From Candidatus Altiarchaeota archaeon (lineage in GTDB: Archaea; SpSt-1190; DYHY01), in contig JAUXGB010000002.1 in NCBI GenBank assembly GCA_030622515.1, positions 1-40,710 of the forward strand: a stretch of 40,710 bases of DNA, given 5' to 3'. The notes beneath the pieces were generated by a model that did not search any database, was not told the origin of the DNA, and worked only from the letters and a program-made list of their open reading frames with translations. Every line of letters begins with the position of its first letter. Within the stretch, counting starts at the first letter, position 1. The position numbers and the translations under genes were made by a program. Shown piece after piece: positions 17,363 through 24,568 of the stretch.

Positions 17363-17366
17363 ACTC

Positions 17367-17593
17367 AACTTGGGCGGACGGAAGATTATTTTTAGGCCAC
17401 CCCCCTAACTTACCCCCCTCCGTCTGCCCCAAGTCTTGAGCCAGCATTATGCTCAAGCCAGCCTACCCCATCGGATAGGAGGGCGCGAGATGGGCCACCA
17501 CCCATACCAAACTGGTATACACCCCCGACCCACAAAAAGGTTGTCGAACCTTTAATTGGCGGACACCCTACTGACCCTAGGACTCCGCCAATC
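17367..17593 (-). ncRNA. Candidate ~225-nt multi-hairpin ncRNA with GGGGU motifs
   Basis: Six consecutive stems; G-U pairs mostly favour the minus strand; TTTTTAAG box about 20-25 nt upstream. Confidence 0.6.
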
Positions 17594-17640
17594 TTTTTAT
17601 TTTTCAAAAGCCTTAAAAAGCCAGCACTTTTTAGTGGTCT

Positions 17641-19991: not shown

Positions 19992-21818
19992 ATGGACTGG
20001 GGCAAGCTTGGGCTAAAGGTTGGTCTGGAAGTTCACCAACAGCTGAAGAGCTCTAAGTTATTTTGCGCCTGCCCATCCCTCCTGCGGCAGGACCCGCCTG
20101 ATTTGAAGCTTGAGCGGAAGCATCGTCCTGTCGCCAGTGAGGTCGGGACGCTTGACCCGGCTGCTTTGCACGAGTTCCTCAAGGGGAAGGCCTACCTCTA
20201 CGAGGCCTACCGAGATACAACCTGCCTTGTTGAGCTGGACGAGGAGCCGCCGCACAAACTCAACCTTGAGGCATTGAAAATCGTTATCGAGGTTGCCAAG
20301 GGACTGGGAGCGCAGCCCTTCGGCGAGCTTCACATCATGAGGAAAGCCATAATTGATGGCTCATGCCCTTCAGGCTTCCAGCGGACCCTGCTTGTGGCAG
20401 GCGACGGCTCCCTGCCCTTTGGCGGGAAGCAAATCAGGATAGAGACTATCGCCCTTGAGGAAGACGCCGCAAGGATTATTTCAAAAAGCAACAAGATAAC
20501 AGTCTTCCGGTTGGACAGGCTTGGCATCCCCCTTATCGAGATAACAACCTCGCCTGACATGGCTACGCCGGACGAGGCGAAAGCAGGCGCCGAGGCGATT
20601 GGCTTGCTTCTCCGCAGCACAGGCAAGGTTATGAGGGGGCTCGGGACCATTAGGCAGGACCTGAACGTGTCGATAAAGGGTGGCGAAAGGATTGAACTCA
20701 AGGGCGTCCAGCGACTTGATTTAATTCCGGATATGGTCCGAAACGAAGTCGCCCGTCAGCAGGCGCTAATCAGTCTTGCGAAGCAGCTGAAAGGGAAAGA
20801 CAAGGATTTCGAAACCAGCATCAGGGACGTTACCGACATCTTCCAAAGCACAGCCTGCCGGATTCTCAAGCCTCCCATCTACGCAGTCAGAATTCCAAAC
20901 TTTGCAGGCATACTAAAGCTTCCCCTGCACGCAGGAAGGCATTTTGGGAAGGAAGTGGCTGACTATGTAAGAGTCAAGGCCGGCGTTCGCGGCTTCTTCC
21001 ACACAGACGAGATGCCGGCCTACGGGGTAAGCGCTGAGGAAGTAGGCCTGCTCCGCAGCAGGCTGGAGGCCGGTCCAAGAGACCTTGTCGCTTTTGTTTC
21101 AGCCTCAAAAGAGCAGGCGCGCACCGCCCTAGCTGTTGTTGTTGACAGGTGTAAAATGGCATTCAACGGCGTGCCAAAGGAAACCCGTCAGGCTCGCGAG
21201 GACGGCTCAAGCTCCTTCCTTCGGCCTCTTGGCGGCGCAGCAAGAATGTATCCTGAAACCGACCTCCTTCCCATTGTTCTTCCCGAACACTTTGTCAGCA
21301 AAATCAAGCCGCCCCAACCGGTTGAGAAGAAGCTCGAGAAGCTTGAGAGGCTTGGCCTTAACCGCACCCTTGCAAAGGCTATCCTTCTCTCAGAGCGAAG
21401 CAGGGTTTTCCACCACGCTGTCAAGGCTGGTGTGAGGCCGACCCTTGCCGCAAGTATTCTTGAGGAGACGCTGCCTTACCTTAGAAGGGAAGGCCTTGAC
21501 ATTGCGTCCATCAGCGACAGCAGCCTGAGGGAGATGTTTGAAATGCTTGCAAGGGGGAAGCTGACGAAGGAAGTTGTCCCTGACGCGATAGCCCTGCTTG
21601 CGAGGAACATGCCGCTCAACACTCTGGCTTCAGAGAAGCTGACCGAGGACGAGCTGCGCAGGGAGCTGAAAAAACTCATTGGCGAAAATGAGGGCTATAT
21701 TGAGTCAAAGGGAAAGTACGCAATAAGCGGCCTCATGGGAATGGCCATGAAGAGGTTCAAAGGGAAGGCCGAAGGCCAGACAATCAGCAGACTTCTGAAG
21801 GAAGAGCTATCGCTCTAG
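19992..21818 (+). CDS. gatE: Glu-tRNA(Gln) amidotransferase subunit E
   Basis: GLKVGLEVHQQL...KLFC, GFQRT, LEEDAAR, LDRLGIPLIEI, GTIRQD, RMYPETD. Confidence 0.96.
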   Translation: MDWGKLGLKVGLEVHQQLKSSKLFCACPSLLRQDPPDLKLERKHRPVASEVGTLDPAALHEFLKGKAYLYEAYRDTTCLVELDEEPPHKLNLEALKIVIEVAKGLGAQPFGELHIMRKAIIDGSCPSGFQRTLLVAGDGSLPFGGKQIRIETIALEEDAARIISKSNKITVFRLDRLGIPLIEITTSPDMATPDEAKAGAEAIGLLLRSTGKVMRGLGTIRQDLNVSIKGGERIELKGVQRLDLIPDMVRNEVARQQALISLAKQLKGKDKDFETSIRDVTDIFQSTACRILKPPIYAVRIPNFAGILKLPLHAGRHFGKEVADYVRVKAGVRGFFHTDEMPAYGVSAEEVGLLRSRLEAGPRDLVAFVSASKEQARTALAVVVDRCKMAFNGVPKETRQAREDGSSSFLRPLGGAARMYPETDLLPIVLPEHFVSKIKPPQPVEKKLEKLERLGLNRTLAKAILLSERSRVFHHAVKAGVRPTLAASILEETLPYLRREGLDIASISDSSLREMFEMLARGKLTKEVVPDAIALLARNMPLNTLASEKLTEDELRRELKKLIGENEGYIESKGKYAISGLMGMAMKRFKGKAEGQTISRLLKEELSL

Positions 21819-22022
21819 AATGACGCCCCTTCTCATCACATCCTCGATTTTTCCAAGCCGCTTCTCCATCAACTCAACCTTCGTCTCAAGGCCTTTCAGC
21901 AGATTGACCTTGACCTGAAGGTCGTGAAGCGTCTGCTCCATATTCTGAATCCTGAAGGTAAGAACCCTTTCATTCAGCTCTTTCAGCTCCTCTTCGTCAA
22001 AACGCCTGTCCATCTCGTCCAT
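21807..22022 (-). CDS. Small coiled-coil hypothetical protein
   Basis: 71-aa ORF with heptad pattern, fills the gap. Confidence 0.65.
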   Translation of the reverse strand: MDEMDRRFDEEELKELNERVLTFRIQNMEQTLHDLQVKVNLLKGLETKVELMEKRLGKIEDVMRRGVILER

Positions 22023-22075
22023 AGGGAGTCAGGTGATGGGAAAGTAATAAATGTTTGTCTGCCTTAGTTGGGCTG

Positions 22076-22348
22076 ATGGTCGGTTTATCCTTTTCTGCAC
22101 CAACCCTTCTCCTAAATGCAGGCATAATCCTCGTTCTTGTATCGGCAATTTTAGGTGGCATAATCTACCAGCAACTTTCAAGGCAATGCACCTTTGACGA
22201 GAATTCGCTTAGCTGCGACTATGCCGGGTACCTGAAGTATGGCATACTTGGCTTTGGGTTTCTGGGCTTAGTCTTTGTTCTTGCCGGGTTCACCCTGAGT
22301 ATAATAGGCGGGCTGGAAAACGAGCCCAGGAGGCTCGGGAAAAAATGA
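22076..22348 (+). CDS. Small 2-TM membrane protein with a C-x7-C loop
   Basis: Two hydrophobic segments; start set at ATG 22076. Confidence 0.65.
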   Translation: MVGLSFSAPTLLLNAGIILVLVSAILGGIIYQQLSRQCTFDENSLSCDYAGYLKYGILGFGFLGLVFVLAGFTLSIIGGLENEPRRLGKK

Positions 22349-22668
22349 ATGAAAAAACTTACATCGGTGTAATTGCGGTAACCTTCGGCCTCTGCTTCTT
22401 CATCGCCTCCCTTATGACAATCTTCCTCCCGGGATTTGGTGACCTTCACCTAGGTTTTCTTGGATGGCTTGCCATAACGATTGAAAACATCTTTCCTTCC
22501 CTGAAACACGTAGCCTTCCCCCTTGCAATGTTTCTTGACTGGATAATTGTCTTTGGCGTGGGATTTACAATTGGGGCCTTAATAGTTATTGAAATGAGGG
22601 CCAAGAACAAGGGCAAGTGGGACCAGTTCGCGGTAAAGCATTCAATAGAAACCGCCAACTCGTTCTGA
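22345..22668 (+). CDS. Small membrane protein (2-3 TM)
   Basis: ATGA overlap with the previous gene; hydrophobic segments. Confidence 0.7.
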   Translation: MNEKTYIGVIAVTFGLCFFIASLMTIFLPGFGDLHLGFLGWLAITIENIFPSLKHVAFPLAMFLDWIIVFGVGFTIGALIVIEMRAKNKGKWDQFAVKHSIETANSF

Positions 22669-22681
22669 AACAACACAAGAA

Positions 22682-22987
22682 GGAGGACATCCTACTCGGT
22701 CTTTACCCCGCCTAATCAGGAATGGGTTGTCCTTTCGGAACATCCTCTCAAGACTTGTCAATTACCCCCAAGTCTTTTTCACCTTCCAAATTGGCATGTG
22801 AGGCTGCCAATAAGTGAGAGGTGGCCGGGAGATAGGATGGATGCACTTTGGTGCAAATCCTATCGGCTTATGCACCCCCCGTGCAGCATTGAGCCAAAAG
22901 ATTTGAGGCAACTTCCTTATGATTCCTGTCTCCAAGTTCCGTAAGGTTTGTTTGCCTGTAGGCCCTTGACTTCTACCCCCGCGGCCA
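22682..22987 (-). ncRNA. Candidate ~305-nt structured ncRNA with GGGGU(A) loops
   Basis: About 9 stems including a multibranch junction and a GAAA tetraloop; TTATTTATA box at 23017-23009; no ORF in the track. Confidence 0.65.
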
Positions 22988-23140
22988 AGAGTATATAGGC
23001 GGTTCGAGTATAAATAATTGCGTTACACCTGTTTGGTTTCTACAAAAACATCGCTTAGCGTCGATTAATCAGGGGTTACTTTGCCGTAATAAAGCACAAA
23101 ACCAAGCAATCTTAATAAGACCCCTGCCCCTTAGTTGCTC

Positions 23141-24568
23141 ATGGGTGGCTCCCTCGGCTTTGCAGTTCTCAGAATGCCTTCCGGAAAAAGAGTTGGCAAG
23201 GCGCCCTACGGAGAGATAGTCAGGACGAAGAAGGAGTTCTTTCCAATTTACAGGATTACGGAAATCCCGCCCCTGTCCGAAACCGACATCTTCCGCATCG
23301 AGAAGGTTCTGAAGATTTACGAGGAGAAGGCAGATTTCCAGTCGCTCGGTGACGAGAGGAAGAAAGACCTTCAAAACCTTGTCTCAAAATACTCTAGTGC
23401 GTTAGGCATCAAGGGGAAGAAACTGTCAGACAGGGAGAAGAAAGTGTATGCAGAGGTCTGCTACATTATGTCTGGCGAAGGCCTTGGGCCGCTCTCGCTC
23501 CTCCTGCCGGACGACGAGCTCGAGGAAATAATGGTCAATGGGCTCAACAAGCCAATCTACGTCTATCACAGGAAGTTTGGCATGTGCAAAACCAACCTAA
23601 CATTTGACCGGCCAGACTACTTTGTTGAAAAGGTAAACCAAATCCTCTCGTCTATCGGACGACGGATAGACGAAACCCACCCGCGGGCACACGGCGTGCT
23701 GAAGAGTGGCGACAGGATTGCTGCACTCATGCCTCCCTATTCCCGGGACTATTCTCTTGACATAAGAAAGTTTTCAGTTCGTCCCCTGACCGTCCTTGAC
23801 CTGATTAAAAAGAATATGCTAACCTACGAAGCTGCGGCCTTTCTCTGGATTATTTTCGAAGCAGGTTGCAACGTAGGAATTGTTGGCAACACCGGAGCCG
23901 GAAAAACAACCCTTCTCAATGCACTCTTCCGATTCGTTCCTTACCACCAAAGGGTCTTGTGCGTGGAGGAAACACCTGAAATCCAGATACCGCAGGAGCA
24001 GTATGTGAGAATGATTTCTGTTGAAAACCTCGACATAACCCTGCAGGATGCAATCCTTGACTCGCTCCGGTTACGGCCTGGCCGGGTGATAATAGGGGAG
24101 GTGAGGAGCCCGCAGGAAGTTGAAGCCCTAAAAGATTCCTGCCTTGCCGGACAAGCCCTCGGCACCTACTTCACTTACCATGCAGAAAATTCCAACTTTG
24201 CAATCCAAAGATTAAACGAACAAGGATTTTCCCCACGCGACCTGACGGCAATCAACCTTCTTGTGGTTTGCAAGAGGTATGAAAAAAAATCTGACTGCAG
24301 GACCCACCGAACGGTTACTGAGATAGTTGAGATAACAAAAAAGTTCAACGCTTTACCAAAACTCAAAACCCTTTTCTCTTACGACTTTGCCAAAGACCTG
24401 CTCAAAAAGAAAACACTAGACGCAGAGCTTGTGAAATCAATATCAAAACTTTACTTCTCCGGAAAAATATCCACCTTCATGAAGGAACTCAAGCGACGGG
24501 AGAGGATTCTGAAATCCCTCAAACCCTTAAGCGATAAAGACTTCTTCACAAAGATTCAGGGAGGCTAA
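23141..24568 (+). CDS. Type IV pilus/Tad assembly ATPase (VirB11/CpaF/FlaI family)
   Basis: LEEIMVNG, GNTGAGKTT, VEETPE, LRLRP.R.IIGEVR, T.HA. Confidence 0.92.
   Translation: MGGSLGFAVLRMPSGKRVGKAPYGEIVRTKKEFFPIYRITEIPPLSETDIFRIEKVLKIYEEKADFQSLGDERKKDLQNLVSKYSSALGIKGKKLSDREKKVYAEVCYIMSGEGLGPLSLLLPDDELEEIMVNGLNKPIYVYHRKFGMCKTNLTFDRPDYFVEKVNQILSSIGRRIDETHPRAHGVLKSGDRIAALMPPYSRDYSLDIRKFSVRPLTVLDLIKKNMLTYEAAAFLWIIFEAGCNVGIVGNTGAGKTTLLNALFRFVPYHQRVLCVEETPEIQIPQEQYVRMISVENLDITLQDAILDSLRLRPGRVIIGEVRSPQEVEALKDSCLAGQALGTYFTYHAENSNFAIQRLNEQGFSPRDLTAINLLVVCKRYEKKSDCRTHRTVTEIVEITKKFNALPKLKTLFSYDFAKDLLKKKTLDAELVKSISKLYFSGKISTFMKELKRRERILKSLKPLSDKDFFTKIQGG

What the first reader, a model, noticed from the sequence alone, without database searches (positions are those of the whole stretch)
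22682..22987. About 305-nt unassigned structured RNA displaying GGGGU(A) in loops
Seen: the largest non-coding gap, in a genome where genes usually abut. On the minus strand it gives stems GGCC/GGCC, AGGCAA/UUGCCU plus CCUUA/UAAGG, UGCAC-GGGGG-GUGCA, GAUAGGAU/AUCCUAUC, CCUCUCA/UGAGAGG enclosing AUUGGCA/UGCCAAU and AAGACUUG-GGGGUAAUUGA-CAAGUCUU, and UCC-GAAA-GGA. Four GGGGU motifs (ACCCC on + at 22705, 22764, 22874, 22975) have their G-runs unpaired. A TTATTTATA box lies about 25 nt upstream, divergent from the pilus operon. I cannot find the canonical RNase P or SRP conserved motifs. Inference: a possibly undescribed ncRNA presenting repeated binding sites, like CsrB/RsmZ-type sponges. GGGGGU can also pair with the 16S anti-Shine-Dalgarno sequence.
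Basis: partly seen in the sequence, partly recalled or inferred. Interest (0 to 1): 0.85.

Follow-up and report, generated by a model that had tools for sequence, protein, structure and literature searches.

The report
Orphan structured RNA candidate, small archaeon
A gene-free 466-base gap in a small archaeal genome probably encodes a folded RNA of about 300 bases that matches no known RNA family, but no relative or transcript could be found, so both its reality and its function remain unproven.

Summary
The sequence facts hold. 22669-23134 is ORF-poor, the four ACCCC sites are where stated, and every stem word exists.

**For a minus-strand RNA**
- It folds better than shuffles: z -4.48 (0 of 100) and -3.65 (0 of 250). 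The plus strand gives -2.1 to -2.4.
- It is not RNase P or SRP RNA. Both lie elsewhere in the genome, and Rfam gives 0 hits even at E<=10.
- Coding readings fail.

**Why the case stays moderate**
- The genome's z background is broad: 2 of 36 random windows reach -3, and the gap ranks 17th of 107.
- The TATA-like box sits at the right distance but scores weakly.
- Only 2 of 4 G-runs are unpaired in the best folds.
- No homologue turned up in 150 other genomes, in metagenome or viral contigs, or in plasmid or phage records, so covariation cannot be tested.
- Near-identical strain contigs from three other studies place 9 of 12 substitutions in unpaired parts of one near-optimal model.

**Context**
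- The RNA sits in a 1.3-kb lineage-specific insertion between gatE and a pilus-type ATPase.
- A second folded, GGGGT-rich gap (17363-17640) shares an 11-mer with it.

**Verdict:** a plausible orphan ncRNA. The sponge or anti-SD idea is untested. Interest is modest.

The parts
22675..22988 (-). Candidate RNA as modelled (alignment A1 and model R1; column c = 22989 - position). The likely 5' end is near 22986 (GGCC). The 3' end is not defined and lies somewhere in the U-rich tail.
   Evidence: Fold excess on this strand. No Rfam hit. No credible ORF.
22823..22986 (-). Domain I (columns 3-166). A closing helix of 5+8 bp opens onto a three-way junction. One arm is an 80-nt irregular hairpin capped by a GAGA tetraloop (22929-22932). 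The second arm has two alternative UGCAC/GUGCA pairings, with GGGG (columns 109-112) in an internal loop.
   Evidence: MFE, MEA and pair probabilities. Energies of the alternative pairings. The G25>A strain variant keeps the pair with U90.
22699..22822 (-). Domain II (columns 167-290). CCUCUCA/UGAGAGG closes a three-way junction. It holds a hairpin AUUGGCA-GCCUCACA-UGCCAAU (22790-22811) and a hairpin AGACUUG-GGGGUAAUUGA-CAAGUCU (22751-22775). A purine-rich junction, a GAAA-tetraloop hairpin (22733-22736) and an ACCC/GGGU stem follow.
   Evidence: This model is isoenergetic with the MFE. Strain variants cluster in its loops and junction, and A197>G keeps the pair with U180. A predicted 5-bp loop-loop duplex of -7.2 kcal/mol is possible.
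22664..22698 (-). 3' tail GGAUGUCCUCCUUCUUGUGUUGUUU. It is U-rich, a possible archaeal termination tract, and resembles the 16S 3' end GGAUCACCUCCUUU. It abuts the stop codon of the convergent 107-aa gene.
   Evidence: Sequence. 16S 3' end. This is the most variable part among the strain contigs, including 1-nt indels. Reading it as a terminator is inference.
23009..23017 (-). TATA-like box TTATTTATA, centred 27 nt upstream of GGCC at 22986.
   Evidence: It sits where the boxes of the tRNA, SRP and RNase P genes sit. Its matrix score is weak: 4.2, a value reached by 0.4% of genome 14-mers. A 13-nt block containing it is identical in the X6 contig, although only 3 of the 8 adjacent spacer bases match.
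22705..22709 (-). G-run d (GGGGU, columns 280-284). It is paired with ACCC in both fold models.
22764..22769 (-). G-run b (GGGGGU, columns 220-225). It lies in an 11-nt hairpin loop and is unpaired.
   Evidence: The X6 contig carries one extra G here, and the 3' half of the loop varies.
22874..22880 (-). G-run c (GGGGGGU, columns 109-115).
22975..22980 (-). G-run a (GGGGGU, columns 9-14). It is paired in the closing helix of domain I in the MFE, and sits in a loop only in the weaker reader model.
21819..23134 (.). Lineage-specific segment between gatE and the pilus-type ATPase. It holds a 71-aa ORF (minus), 97-aa and 107-aa membrane-like ORFs (plus) and the RNA candidate (minus).
   Evidence: In G001 and G003 gatE is followed directly by the ATPase, 57 and 80 nt apart. 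In G002 GatB/GatA/GatC-like ORFs lie between them, named from their N-terminal sequences and lengths rather than from a family search. The 107-aa protein was not found in 5 relatives.

Best explanation
The gap most likely carries an independently transcribed, structured non-coding RNA of about 300 nt on the minus strand. It would run from near 22986 to about 22675. It appears restricted to this genus-level lineage and arrived with a 1.3-kb insertion between gatE and a pilus-type ATPase operon.

It folds into two domains, each built on a three-way junction and each carrying a GNRA tetraloop.

My working mechanism is inferred, not shown. The RNA would act in trans as a scaffold or decoy through its few exposed purine-rich, Shine-Dalgarno-like elements: GGGG at columns 109-112, GGGGUAAUUGA at 221-231 and AGGUGA at 205-210. 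These could pair with C/U-rich partners such as the CCUCC end of 16S rRNA, or bind a protein. At least one G-run may instead serve an internal loop-loop contact with the neighbouring GCCUCACA loop.

- **Shown:** absence of coding signal, fold excess with a strand bias, absence from known families, and single copy.
- **Inferred:** transcription, the RNA's ends, and any function.
For: - **No coding signal.** The gap has no ORF above 57 aa. The 57-aa ORF has no family: its 2 hits among 1.84 billion representatives are tandem-repeat junk, and Pfam gives none. Strain contigs carry two different stop codons in one of its Trp codons.
- **Fold excess with a strand bias.** The minus strand folds at -112.1 kcal/mol, z -4.48 and -3.65. 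The plus strand gives -100.7 and -99.8 kcal/mol, z -2.40 and -2.14. The MFE holds 10 G-U pairs among 97.
- **Structural motifs.** Two GNRA tetraloops, GAGA and GAAA, cap predicted stems.
- **Promoter.** A TATA-like box sits at the same distance as in the tRNA, SRP and RNase P genes. It is kept in a 13 of 13 identical block in a strain whose adjacent spacer matches in only 3 of 8 bases.
- **Strain variation.** Contigs 94-99% identical from three other studies cover the RNA. In the composite model, 9 of 12 substitution sites are unpaired and 2 of the 3 paired ones keep the pair. Random placement gives P = 0.009 and 0.03.
- **Motif enrichment.** GGGGT occurs 4 times against 0.24 expected.
- **Not a known universal RNA.** RNase P and SRP RNAs are elsewhere in the genome.
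Against: - **No homologue, so no covariation test.**
  - BLAST against 40 relatives found nothing.
  - Model R1 found nothing in 16 phylum members or in 150 genomes.
  - Syntenic loci scanned with filters off gave nothing.
  - A metagenome scan by the neighbouring gene returned only 29-34% identical ATPases.
  - Viral, plasmid and phage searches gave nothing.
- **The z-score is not exceptional for this genome.**
  - 2 of 36 random windows reach -3.
  - ORF-free gaps average -1.39 with sd 1.74, and this gap ranks 17th of 107.
- **The promoter match is weak.** It scores 4.2, against 7.7 or more for 30 of 35 stable-RNA genes.
- **The variant test depends on the model.** Against the plain MFE the strain variants show no avoidance of stems: 7 of 12 are paired and 4 break pairs, P about 0.5. 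Choosing between two models costs a factor of two, and the contigs have depth 2-4, so some differences may be errors.
- **A rival open frame exists.** A plus-strand frame stays open for 92 codons after the TGA of the 107-aa gene (for its translation).
- **No expression data exist.**
Confidence: 0.45

Rival explanations
1. This is non-functional spacer DNA left by a lineage-specific insertion or rearrangement between gatE and the ATPase gene. The fold excess, the G-runs and the TATA-like box are then chance features of young, unconstrained sequence.
For: - The segment is absent from the two relatives in which gatE abuts the ATPase.
- No homologue exists anywhere I searched.
- The z-score lies within the tail of this genome's background.
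- The promoter score is weak.
- Variants do not avoid MFE stems.
Against: - Genes otherwise abut in this roughly 1-Mb genome, so 466 nt of junk would be unusual.
- Domain I shows only 2 differences in 135 nt in the most divergent strain contig, which differs at 11 of 187 positions further on.
- The fold excess is strand-specific.
- Four GGGGT against 0.24 expected is a rare event: 8 such clusters in the genome.
Confidence: 0.3
2. This is a CsrB/RsmZ-like sponge. The GGGGU(A) motifs are repeated binding sites that titrate an RNA-binding protein, or the 3' end of 16S rRNA in 30S subunits.
For: - GGGGT is enriched: 4 observed against 0.24 expected.
- Three of the four read GGGGGUA or GGGGUAA.
- GGGGG and GGGGT are used at SD positions in this genome: 25 of 39 and 15 of 29 upstream occurrences.
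- Predicted duplexes with the 16S tail are -8.5 to -12.8 kcal/mol.
- A second folded gap in the window carries 5 GGGGT.
Against: - Only 2 of 4 motifs are unpaired in the best folds.
- Four sites are few for a sponge.
- CsrA is not found and no partner is identified.
- By a broader SD-like definition, 3.3% of genome windows have as many sites.
- The loop G-run can equally be explained by an internal loop-loop contact.
Confidence: 0.08
3. The function lies on the plus strand or in the DNA. The stretch would be a structured 3' UTR or terminator region of the 97-aa/107-aa operon, or a set of palindromic protein-binding sites (for example TTGGCA-N8-TGCCAA) controlling the pilus operon.
For: - The plus strand also folds somewhat better than shuffles: z -2.1 to -2.4.
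- The stretch follows the operon's stop codon directly.
- The TATA-like box is nearly symmetric and could serve the plus strand.
Against: - The minus strand is about 11-12 kcal/mol more stable, with 10 G-U pairs that become A-C mismatches on the plus strand.
- The stems lie 150-450 nt upstream of the ATPase start, far from a usual archaeal operator. That positional argument is my own knowledge.
- There is no origin signature. No Orc1/Cdc6 family match came up in the window's proteins scanned against Pfam, about 35 ORFs with several giving no family. There is no turn in the GC skew.
Confidence: 0.1
4. The stretch is protein-coding after all. Either the 57-aa minus-strand ORF (22765-22935) is real, or a read-through or formerly longer form of the 107-aa gene continues in frame for 92 codons past its TGA, to 22944.
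For: - Both frames are open (translation).
- The plus frame is in phase with the upstream gene.
- Two of the variant sites in the 57-aa ORF are synonymous.
Against: - Neither product has a family match.
- The 57-aa ORF has a TTG start with no SD, and strains carry TGA and TAG in its Trp codon.
- In the plus frame only 2 of 15 variant sites are third positions, and one strain has a 1-nt insertion. In the real 107-aa gene, 3 of 4 variant sites are third positions.
Confidence: 0.04
5. It is a very divergent copy of a known RNA: RNase P, SRP, an intron-bearing tRNA, a guide RNA or a mobile-element RNA.
For: The size of about 300 nt and the multi-domain fold with GNRA loops resemble RNase P or SRP RNAs.
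Against: - Rfam gives 0 hits at E<=10.
- RNase P RNA (117 bits) and SRP RNA (92.6 bits) are elsewhere in the genome.
- ARAGORN finds nothing at ordinary thresholds.
- BLAST shows no similarity to the contigs that hold those RNAs.
- No transposase, reverse transcriptase or Cas gene is nearby.
Confidence: 0.02

Closest known systems
CsrB/RsmY/RsmZ protein-sponge RNAs of bacteria
   Same: A stand-alone RNA with its own promoter, no ORF, several hairpins and a short purine motif repeated along it that resembles a Shine-Dalgarno core.
   Different: - The motif is GGGGU, not (A)GGA.
- There are only 4 copies, and only 2 are in loops.
- No CsrA is found.
- No Rfam hit to any Csr/Rsm model.
- The host is an archaeon.
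- The description of the Csr/Rsm families rests on my own knowledge.
Archaeal RNase P RNA (RF00373) and SRP RNA (RF01857)
   Same: Similar length, a multi-helix junction architecture, GNRA tetraloops, and a promoter box at the same distance.
   Different: Both are present elsewhere in the genome. The candidate scores nothing against either model and has no sequence similarity to them.
Orphan candidate structured RNAs from comparative-genomics surveys of intergenic regions (for example PMC2864571 and PMC5737381, seen only as search listings and abstract openings)
   Same: An ORF-free intergenic stretch with predicted structure and no assigned function.
   Different: Those candidates are defined by covariation among many homologues. 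This one has no homologue beyond near-identical strains, so it fails the entry criterion of such surveys.

Membership tests
Archaeal RNase P RNA (RF00373) | Match to the covariance model, which encodes the conserved core and the P4 helix region | tested here: not met
   0 Rfam matches in the window at gathering score and at E<=10 in 22500-23250. The genome's RNase P RNA is at C62:6885-7135, 117.1 bits.
Archaeal SRP RNA (RF01857) | Match to the covariance model (helices 5, 6 and 8 and the Alu domain) | tested here: not met
   0 matches. The genome's SRP RNA is at C14:9069-9349, 92.6 bits, E 5e-22.
tRNA / tmRNA | Cloverleaf with a T-arm, with or without an intron | tested here: not met
   ARAGORN finds 0 genes in the window and 0 with introns allowed at 90% threshold. 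Only a spurious plus-strand call appears at 80%.
CsrB/RsmZ-type sponge | Many GGA-containing motifs presented in hairpin loops | tested here: not met
   The motif is GGGGU, with 4 copies. Two are unpaired in the MFE and the ensemble.
CsrB/RsmZ-type sponge | Cognate CsrA/RsmA protein encoded in the genome | tested here: not met
   PF02599 gives 0 matches in the genome. The genome is 84.3% complete, so absence is not proven. The control rang in 3 of 14 genomes.
Cis-regulatory leader / riboswitch | A gene on the same strand immediately downstream | tested here: not met
   Downstream on the minus strand lie the plus-strand 107-aa and 97-aa genes. The next minus-strand ORF of note is at 21807-22022.
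C/D or H/ACA guide RNAs | Box motifs with a k-turn, and a match to curated models | tested here: not met
   No Rfam match. By eye I saw no C/D box pair and no ACA after a hairpin. The motif definitions are recalled, not computed.
Structured non-coding RNA gene (generic) | Compensatory base changes among homologues | not testable with these tools
   No homologue beyond contigs 94-99% identical. Two single-sided pair-keeping changes, G25>A and A197>G, and no double changes.
Structured non-coding RNA gene (generic) | A discrete transcript of the predicted strand | not testable with these tools
Structured non-coding RNA gene (generic) | Fold stability beyond composition, stronger on one strand | tested here: met
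   Minus strand z -4.48 and -3.65, plus strand z -2.40 and -2.14. The support is modest against the genome background.

The most novel reading that the evidence does not exclude
The candidate and the second folded gap at 17363-17640 would be two members of a lineage-specific class of Shine-Dalgarno-mimic RNAs. Both are minus-strand and GGGGU-rich, and both hold the only two genome copies of AAGACTTGGGG.

They would dock onto the CCUCC end of 16S rRNA, or onto a protein that reads that motif. In a reduced-genome archaeon they would then set how many small subunits are free for SD-led as against leaderless messages.
Probability: 0.05. Interest if true: 0.75.

Novelty: new member of a known kind. 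Interest (0 to 1): 0.3.

Why it matters
If real, this would be a new RNA family in a poorly known phylum of small-genome archaea. That phylum has only 17 species representatives in the genomes searched, and almost nothing is known about its regulatory RNAs.

A roughly 300-nt two-domain RNA kept in a 1-Mb genome would probably do something important for the cell. Its SD-like loops give a concrete hypothesis to test.

As it stands it is one unreplicated candidate. Its value is as a target to look at when transcriptomes or more genomes of this lineage appear.

Tried and rejected
**Known families**
- Rfam over the whole window at gathering score, and over the locus at E<=10: nothing.
- ARAGORN: nothing.

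**Homologue searches, all empty**
- BLAST of the gap against 40 relatives.
- Model R1, built from a single sequence, against the 16 other genomes of the phylum, against 150 genomes with the stricter filters, and with filters off on 10 syntenic loci and on the window.
- The hairpin pattern in the phylum.
- A genome-contig scan with GatE: only distant bacterial GatB-like loci, which used that scan too.
- Viral contigs, by pattern and by the 107-aa protein.
- Plasmid and phage records.

**Synteny**
- The ATPase and GatE loci of relatives have no comparable gap.

**Pseudogene remnant**
- tblastn of the three G002 ORFs that lie between the ATPase and gatE (GatB/GatA/GatC-like by their sequence starts, no family search run) against the segment found nothing meaningful.

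**Own-genome paralogues**
- None by blastn or nhmmer.

**Long antisense targets**
- Only 14-15-nt chance-level matches.

**Replication origin**
- No Orc1/Cdc6 family match among the window ORFs scanned against Pfam, and no skew turn.

**Relation between the two folded gaps**
- No alignment-level similarity, and R1 does not hit the second gap.

**Expression**
- No RNA holder was listed among the sequencing runs, so nothing can be said about expression.

**Literature**
- Two full-text searches were read only as listings. Nothing specific to this RNA or lineage appeared. No paper was opened and no supplement was seen.

- The look-up of encoding contigs is announced as closed and was not called.

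**Failed scripts**
- died, and raised an error, because my structure string was unbalanced: two stem words share a U. I corrected this.

**Organism**
- I did not try to name the organism or its source.
Full report
**What is there.**
- The window is a chromosomal piece of a small archaeal genome: 877,562 bases in 69 contigs, 84.3% complete.
- It carries housekeeping genes: thermosome, Kae1, GatD, GatE, FtsZ, HisRS, CTP synthase and ADP-dependent kinase.
- Between a 107-aa membrane-like ORF (22345-22668, plus) and a T2SSE-type ATPase (23135-24568, plus, followed by a T2SSF gene) lies a 466-nt gap. Its largest ORFs are 57 aa (minus) and 48 aa (plus).

**Is it more than chance?**
- The minus strand of 22682-22987 folds to -112.1 kcal/mol.
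  - The tool's 100 dinucleotide shuffles give z -4.48, with none as low.
  - My own 250 shuffles give z -3.65, with none as low.
- The plus strand gives z -2.40 and -2.14.
- This is a real excess with a strand bias, but it must be read against the genome.
  - 36 random 306-nt windows had mean z -0.56 and sd 1.45, and 2 of 36 reached -3.
  - The genome's own SRP and RNase P RNAs gave -1.0 and -2.8.
  - Among 107 ORF-free gaps of at least 180 nt, a centred window of this gap ranked 17th. Many of the higher-ranked gaps hold tRNA genes.
- GGGGT is rare in this genome, at 0.24 expected per 306 nt. Four in one stretch occurs in only 8 clusters genome-wide.

**Not a known RNA.**
- Rfam gave no match in the whole window at gathering scores and none at E<=10 around the locus.
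- The genome has an SRP RNA on contig C14 (92.6 bits, E 5e-22) and an RNase P RNA on C62 (117.1 bits).
- ARAGORN found no tRNA or tmRNA.
- The stretch is single-copy, and BLAST shows no similarity to the contigs that hold those RNAs.

**Not coding.**
- The 57-aa minus ORF starts with TTG and has no SD.
  - It has no Pfam match.
  - Against 1.84 billion representatives it hit only two tandem-repeat artefact proteins at E about 1e-5.
  - In the strain contigs the same Trp codon is TGA in two runs and TAG in a third (mapped).
- A plus-strand frame stays open for 92 codons beyond the TGA of the 107-aa gene.
  - Only 2 of 15 variant sites there are third positions, and one strain has a 1-nt insertion.
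  - Its product has no family.
  - In the real 107-aa gene, by contrast, 3 of 4 variant sites are third positions.

**Structure.**
- The MFE has 97 pairs, 10 of them G-U.
- Domain I (columns 3-166) is closed by a 5+8-bp helix and carries two arms.
  - One is an 80-nt irregular hairpin capped by GAGA.
  - The other contains UGCAC and GUGCA twice each, which allows two exclusive pairings.
- Domain II can fold in two ways of equal energy.
  - One hairpin carries the loop GCCUCACA.
  - The other carries the loop GGGGUAAUUGA.
  - A GAAA-tetraloop hairpin follows.
- In the ensemble only the G-runs at columns 109-112 and 221-224 are unpaired.
- The two neighbouring loops of domain II could form a 5-bp contact of -7.2 kcal/mol. 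At least one G-run may therefore be structural rather than a binding site.

**Promoter and end.**
- Upstream regions of 35 stable-RNA genes (tRNA, SRP and RNase P) share a box with consensus AAAGTTTTTAAAAG. It starts about 36 nt before the mature 5' end, and 30 of the 35 score 7.7 or more.
- The candidate has TTATTTATA at the corresponding place, with its best site at -33. It scores only 4.2, a value reached by 0.4% of all genome 14-mers.
- In the X6 contig a 13-nt block with this box is identical, while only 3 of the 8 bases between it and the RNA match. That pattern fits a promoter, but it is one low-depth contig end.
- The 3' tail is U-rich, abuts the convergent gene's stop codon, and resembles the 16S 3' end.

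**Relatives and context.**
- No homologue was found in any search I could run.
- In two family relatives gatE is followed directly by the ATPase, with gaps of 57 and 80 nt.
- In a third relative, GatB/GatA/GatC-like ORFs lie between them. I named these from their N-terminal sequences and lengths, not from a family search.
- The 1.3 kb from 21819 to 23134 is therefore specific to this lineage. It holds three small ORFs and the RNA candidate.
- The 107-aa protein was not found in 5 relatives.

**Strain variation.**
- Contigs from four coded runs of four studies were laid on 22300-23400. Pieces from three studies, 94-99% identical at depth 2-4, cover the RNA.
- Twelve substitution sites and one inserted G fall in columns 3-307.
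- Against the plain MFE, 7 of 12 sites are paired and 4 break pairs, no better than random placement (P about 0.5).
Random placement gives P = 0.009 for the number paired and 0.03 for the number breaking.
- G25>A and A197>G each keep their pair.

**The G-run idea.**
- The 16S rRNA ends in GGATCACCTCCTTT.
- I looked at the 30 nt upstream of 777 ATG ORFs and counted how many occurrences of each motif start in the SD window, -16 to -8.

| Motif | Occurrences in the SD window |
|---|---|
| GGGGG | 25 of 39 |
| GGGGT | 15 of 29 |
| GGAGG | 40 of 54 |
| GGTGA | 47 of 61 |

- G-runs therefore do serve as SD variants in this genome.
- Predicted duplexes between the five SD-like elements of the RNA and the 16S tail are -8.5 to -12.8 kcal/mol.
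- By a broader SD-like definition the RNA has 5 sites against a genome mean of 1.5, and 3.3% of windows have as many.
- No CsrA is found.
- The sponge or decoy reading is therefore possible but weakly grounded.

**A second region.**
- 17363-17640, between ftsZ and a 131-aa ORF, is also ORF-poor and strongly folding: minus -107.4 kcal/mol with z -3.95 and -4.27, plus z -6.81.
- It carries 5 GGGGT on the minus strand.
- It has a good stable-RNA-type box, scoring 10.7 at -32.
- It has no meaningful Rfam match: five hits at E 0.17-4.9, all far below their families' gathering scores. It has no relative in the phylum.
- It does not align with the candidate. However, the 11-mer AAGACTTGGGG occurs only in these two places in the genome, against 0.42 expected.

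**Verdict.**
- The evidence is circumstantial and the mechanism is open.
- I give 0.45 to a genuine minus-strand structured RNA and 0.3 to functionless young spacer. The rest is divided among a sponge or decoy, a plus-strand or DNA-level role, coding, and a divergent known RNA.

Noticed in passing
window 17363-17640 (minus strand about 17595-17330): A second ORF-poor, strongly folding gap between ftsZ and a 131-aa ORF. It has 5 GGGGT on the minus strand, a good stable-RNA-type promoter box (score 10.7), only junk Rfam hits at E 0.17-4.9 and no relative in the phylum. It shares with the candidate the only two genome copies of AAGACTTGGGG.
   Followed up: partly
window 21819-23134; G001:C16 and G003:C48: gatE and the pilus-type ATPase are adjacent in two family relatives, 57 and 80 nt apart. 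In this genome 1.3 kb with three small ORFs and the RNA candidate separates them. In G002, ORFs that look like GatB, GatA and GatC by their sequence starts and lengths lie between them.
   Followed up: partly
window 22666-22944 (+): The reading frame of the 107-aa gene stays open for 92 codons beyond its TGA stop. Strain variants (2 of 15 at third positions, one 1-nt insertion) argue against a coding extension.
   Followed up: yes
window 21807-22022 (-): A 71-aa ATG ORF with a coiled-coil-like sequence, convergent with gatE. A TATA-like TTTATTAC lies upstream, and Pfam gives only a weak hit to a tetramerisation domain.
   Followed up: no
G000:C14:9069-9349: The genome's SRP RNA scores 92.6 bits, just under Rfam's gathering score of 96.5, so standard annotation would miss it.
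   Followed up: no
G000 contigs C40:5913-6384, C23:15687-16363, C39:1-226, C48:662-1359, C18:4859-5833: Other ORF-free gaps with fold z of -3.7 to -6.7 hold no tRNA called by ARAGORN. They may hold further RNAs or repeats.
   Followed up: no
G000:C19:7583-7657 and C28:17709-17784: Two tRNA-Gln(ttg) genes have identical upstream sequence, one at a contig end. This is probably one locus assembled twice.
   Followed up: no
window 22778-22812: A 187-nt contig of run X6 matches only these 35 nt, the AUUGGCA hairpin, with 5 differences, and continues on both sides in unrelated sequence. It is either another organism's similar hairpin or a chimera.
   Followed up: no
window 23112-23141: TTAATAAG lies about 25 nt before an ATG at 23141. 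The ATPase message may therefore be leaderless and start 6 nt after the listed TTG start at 23135.
   Followed up: no
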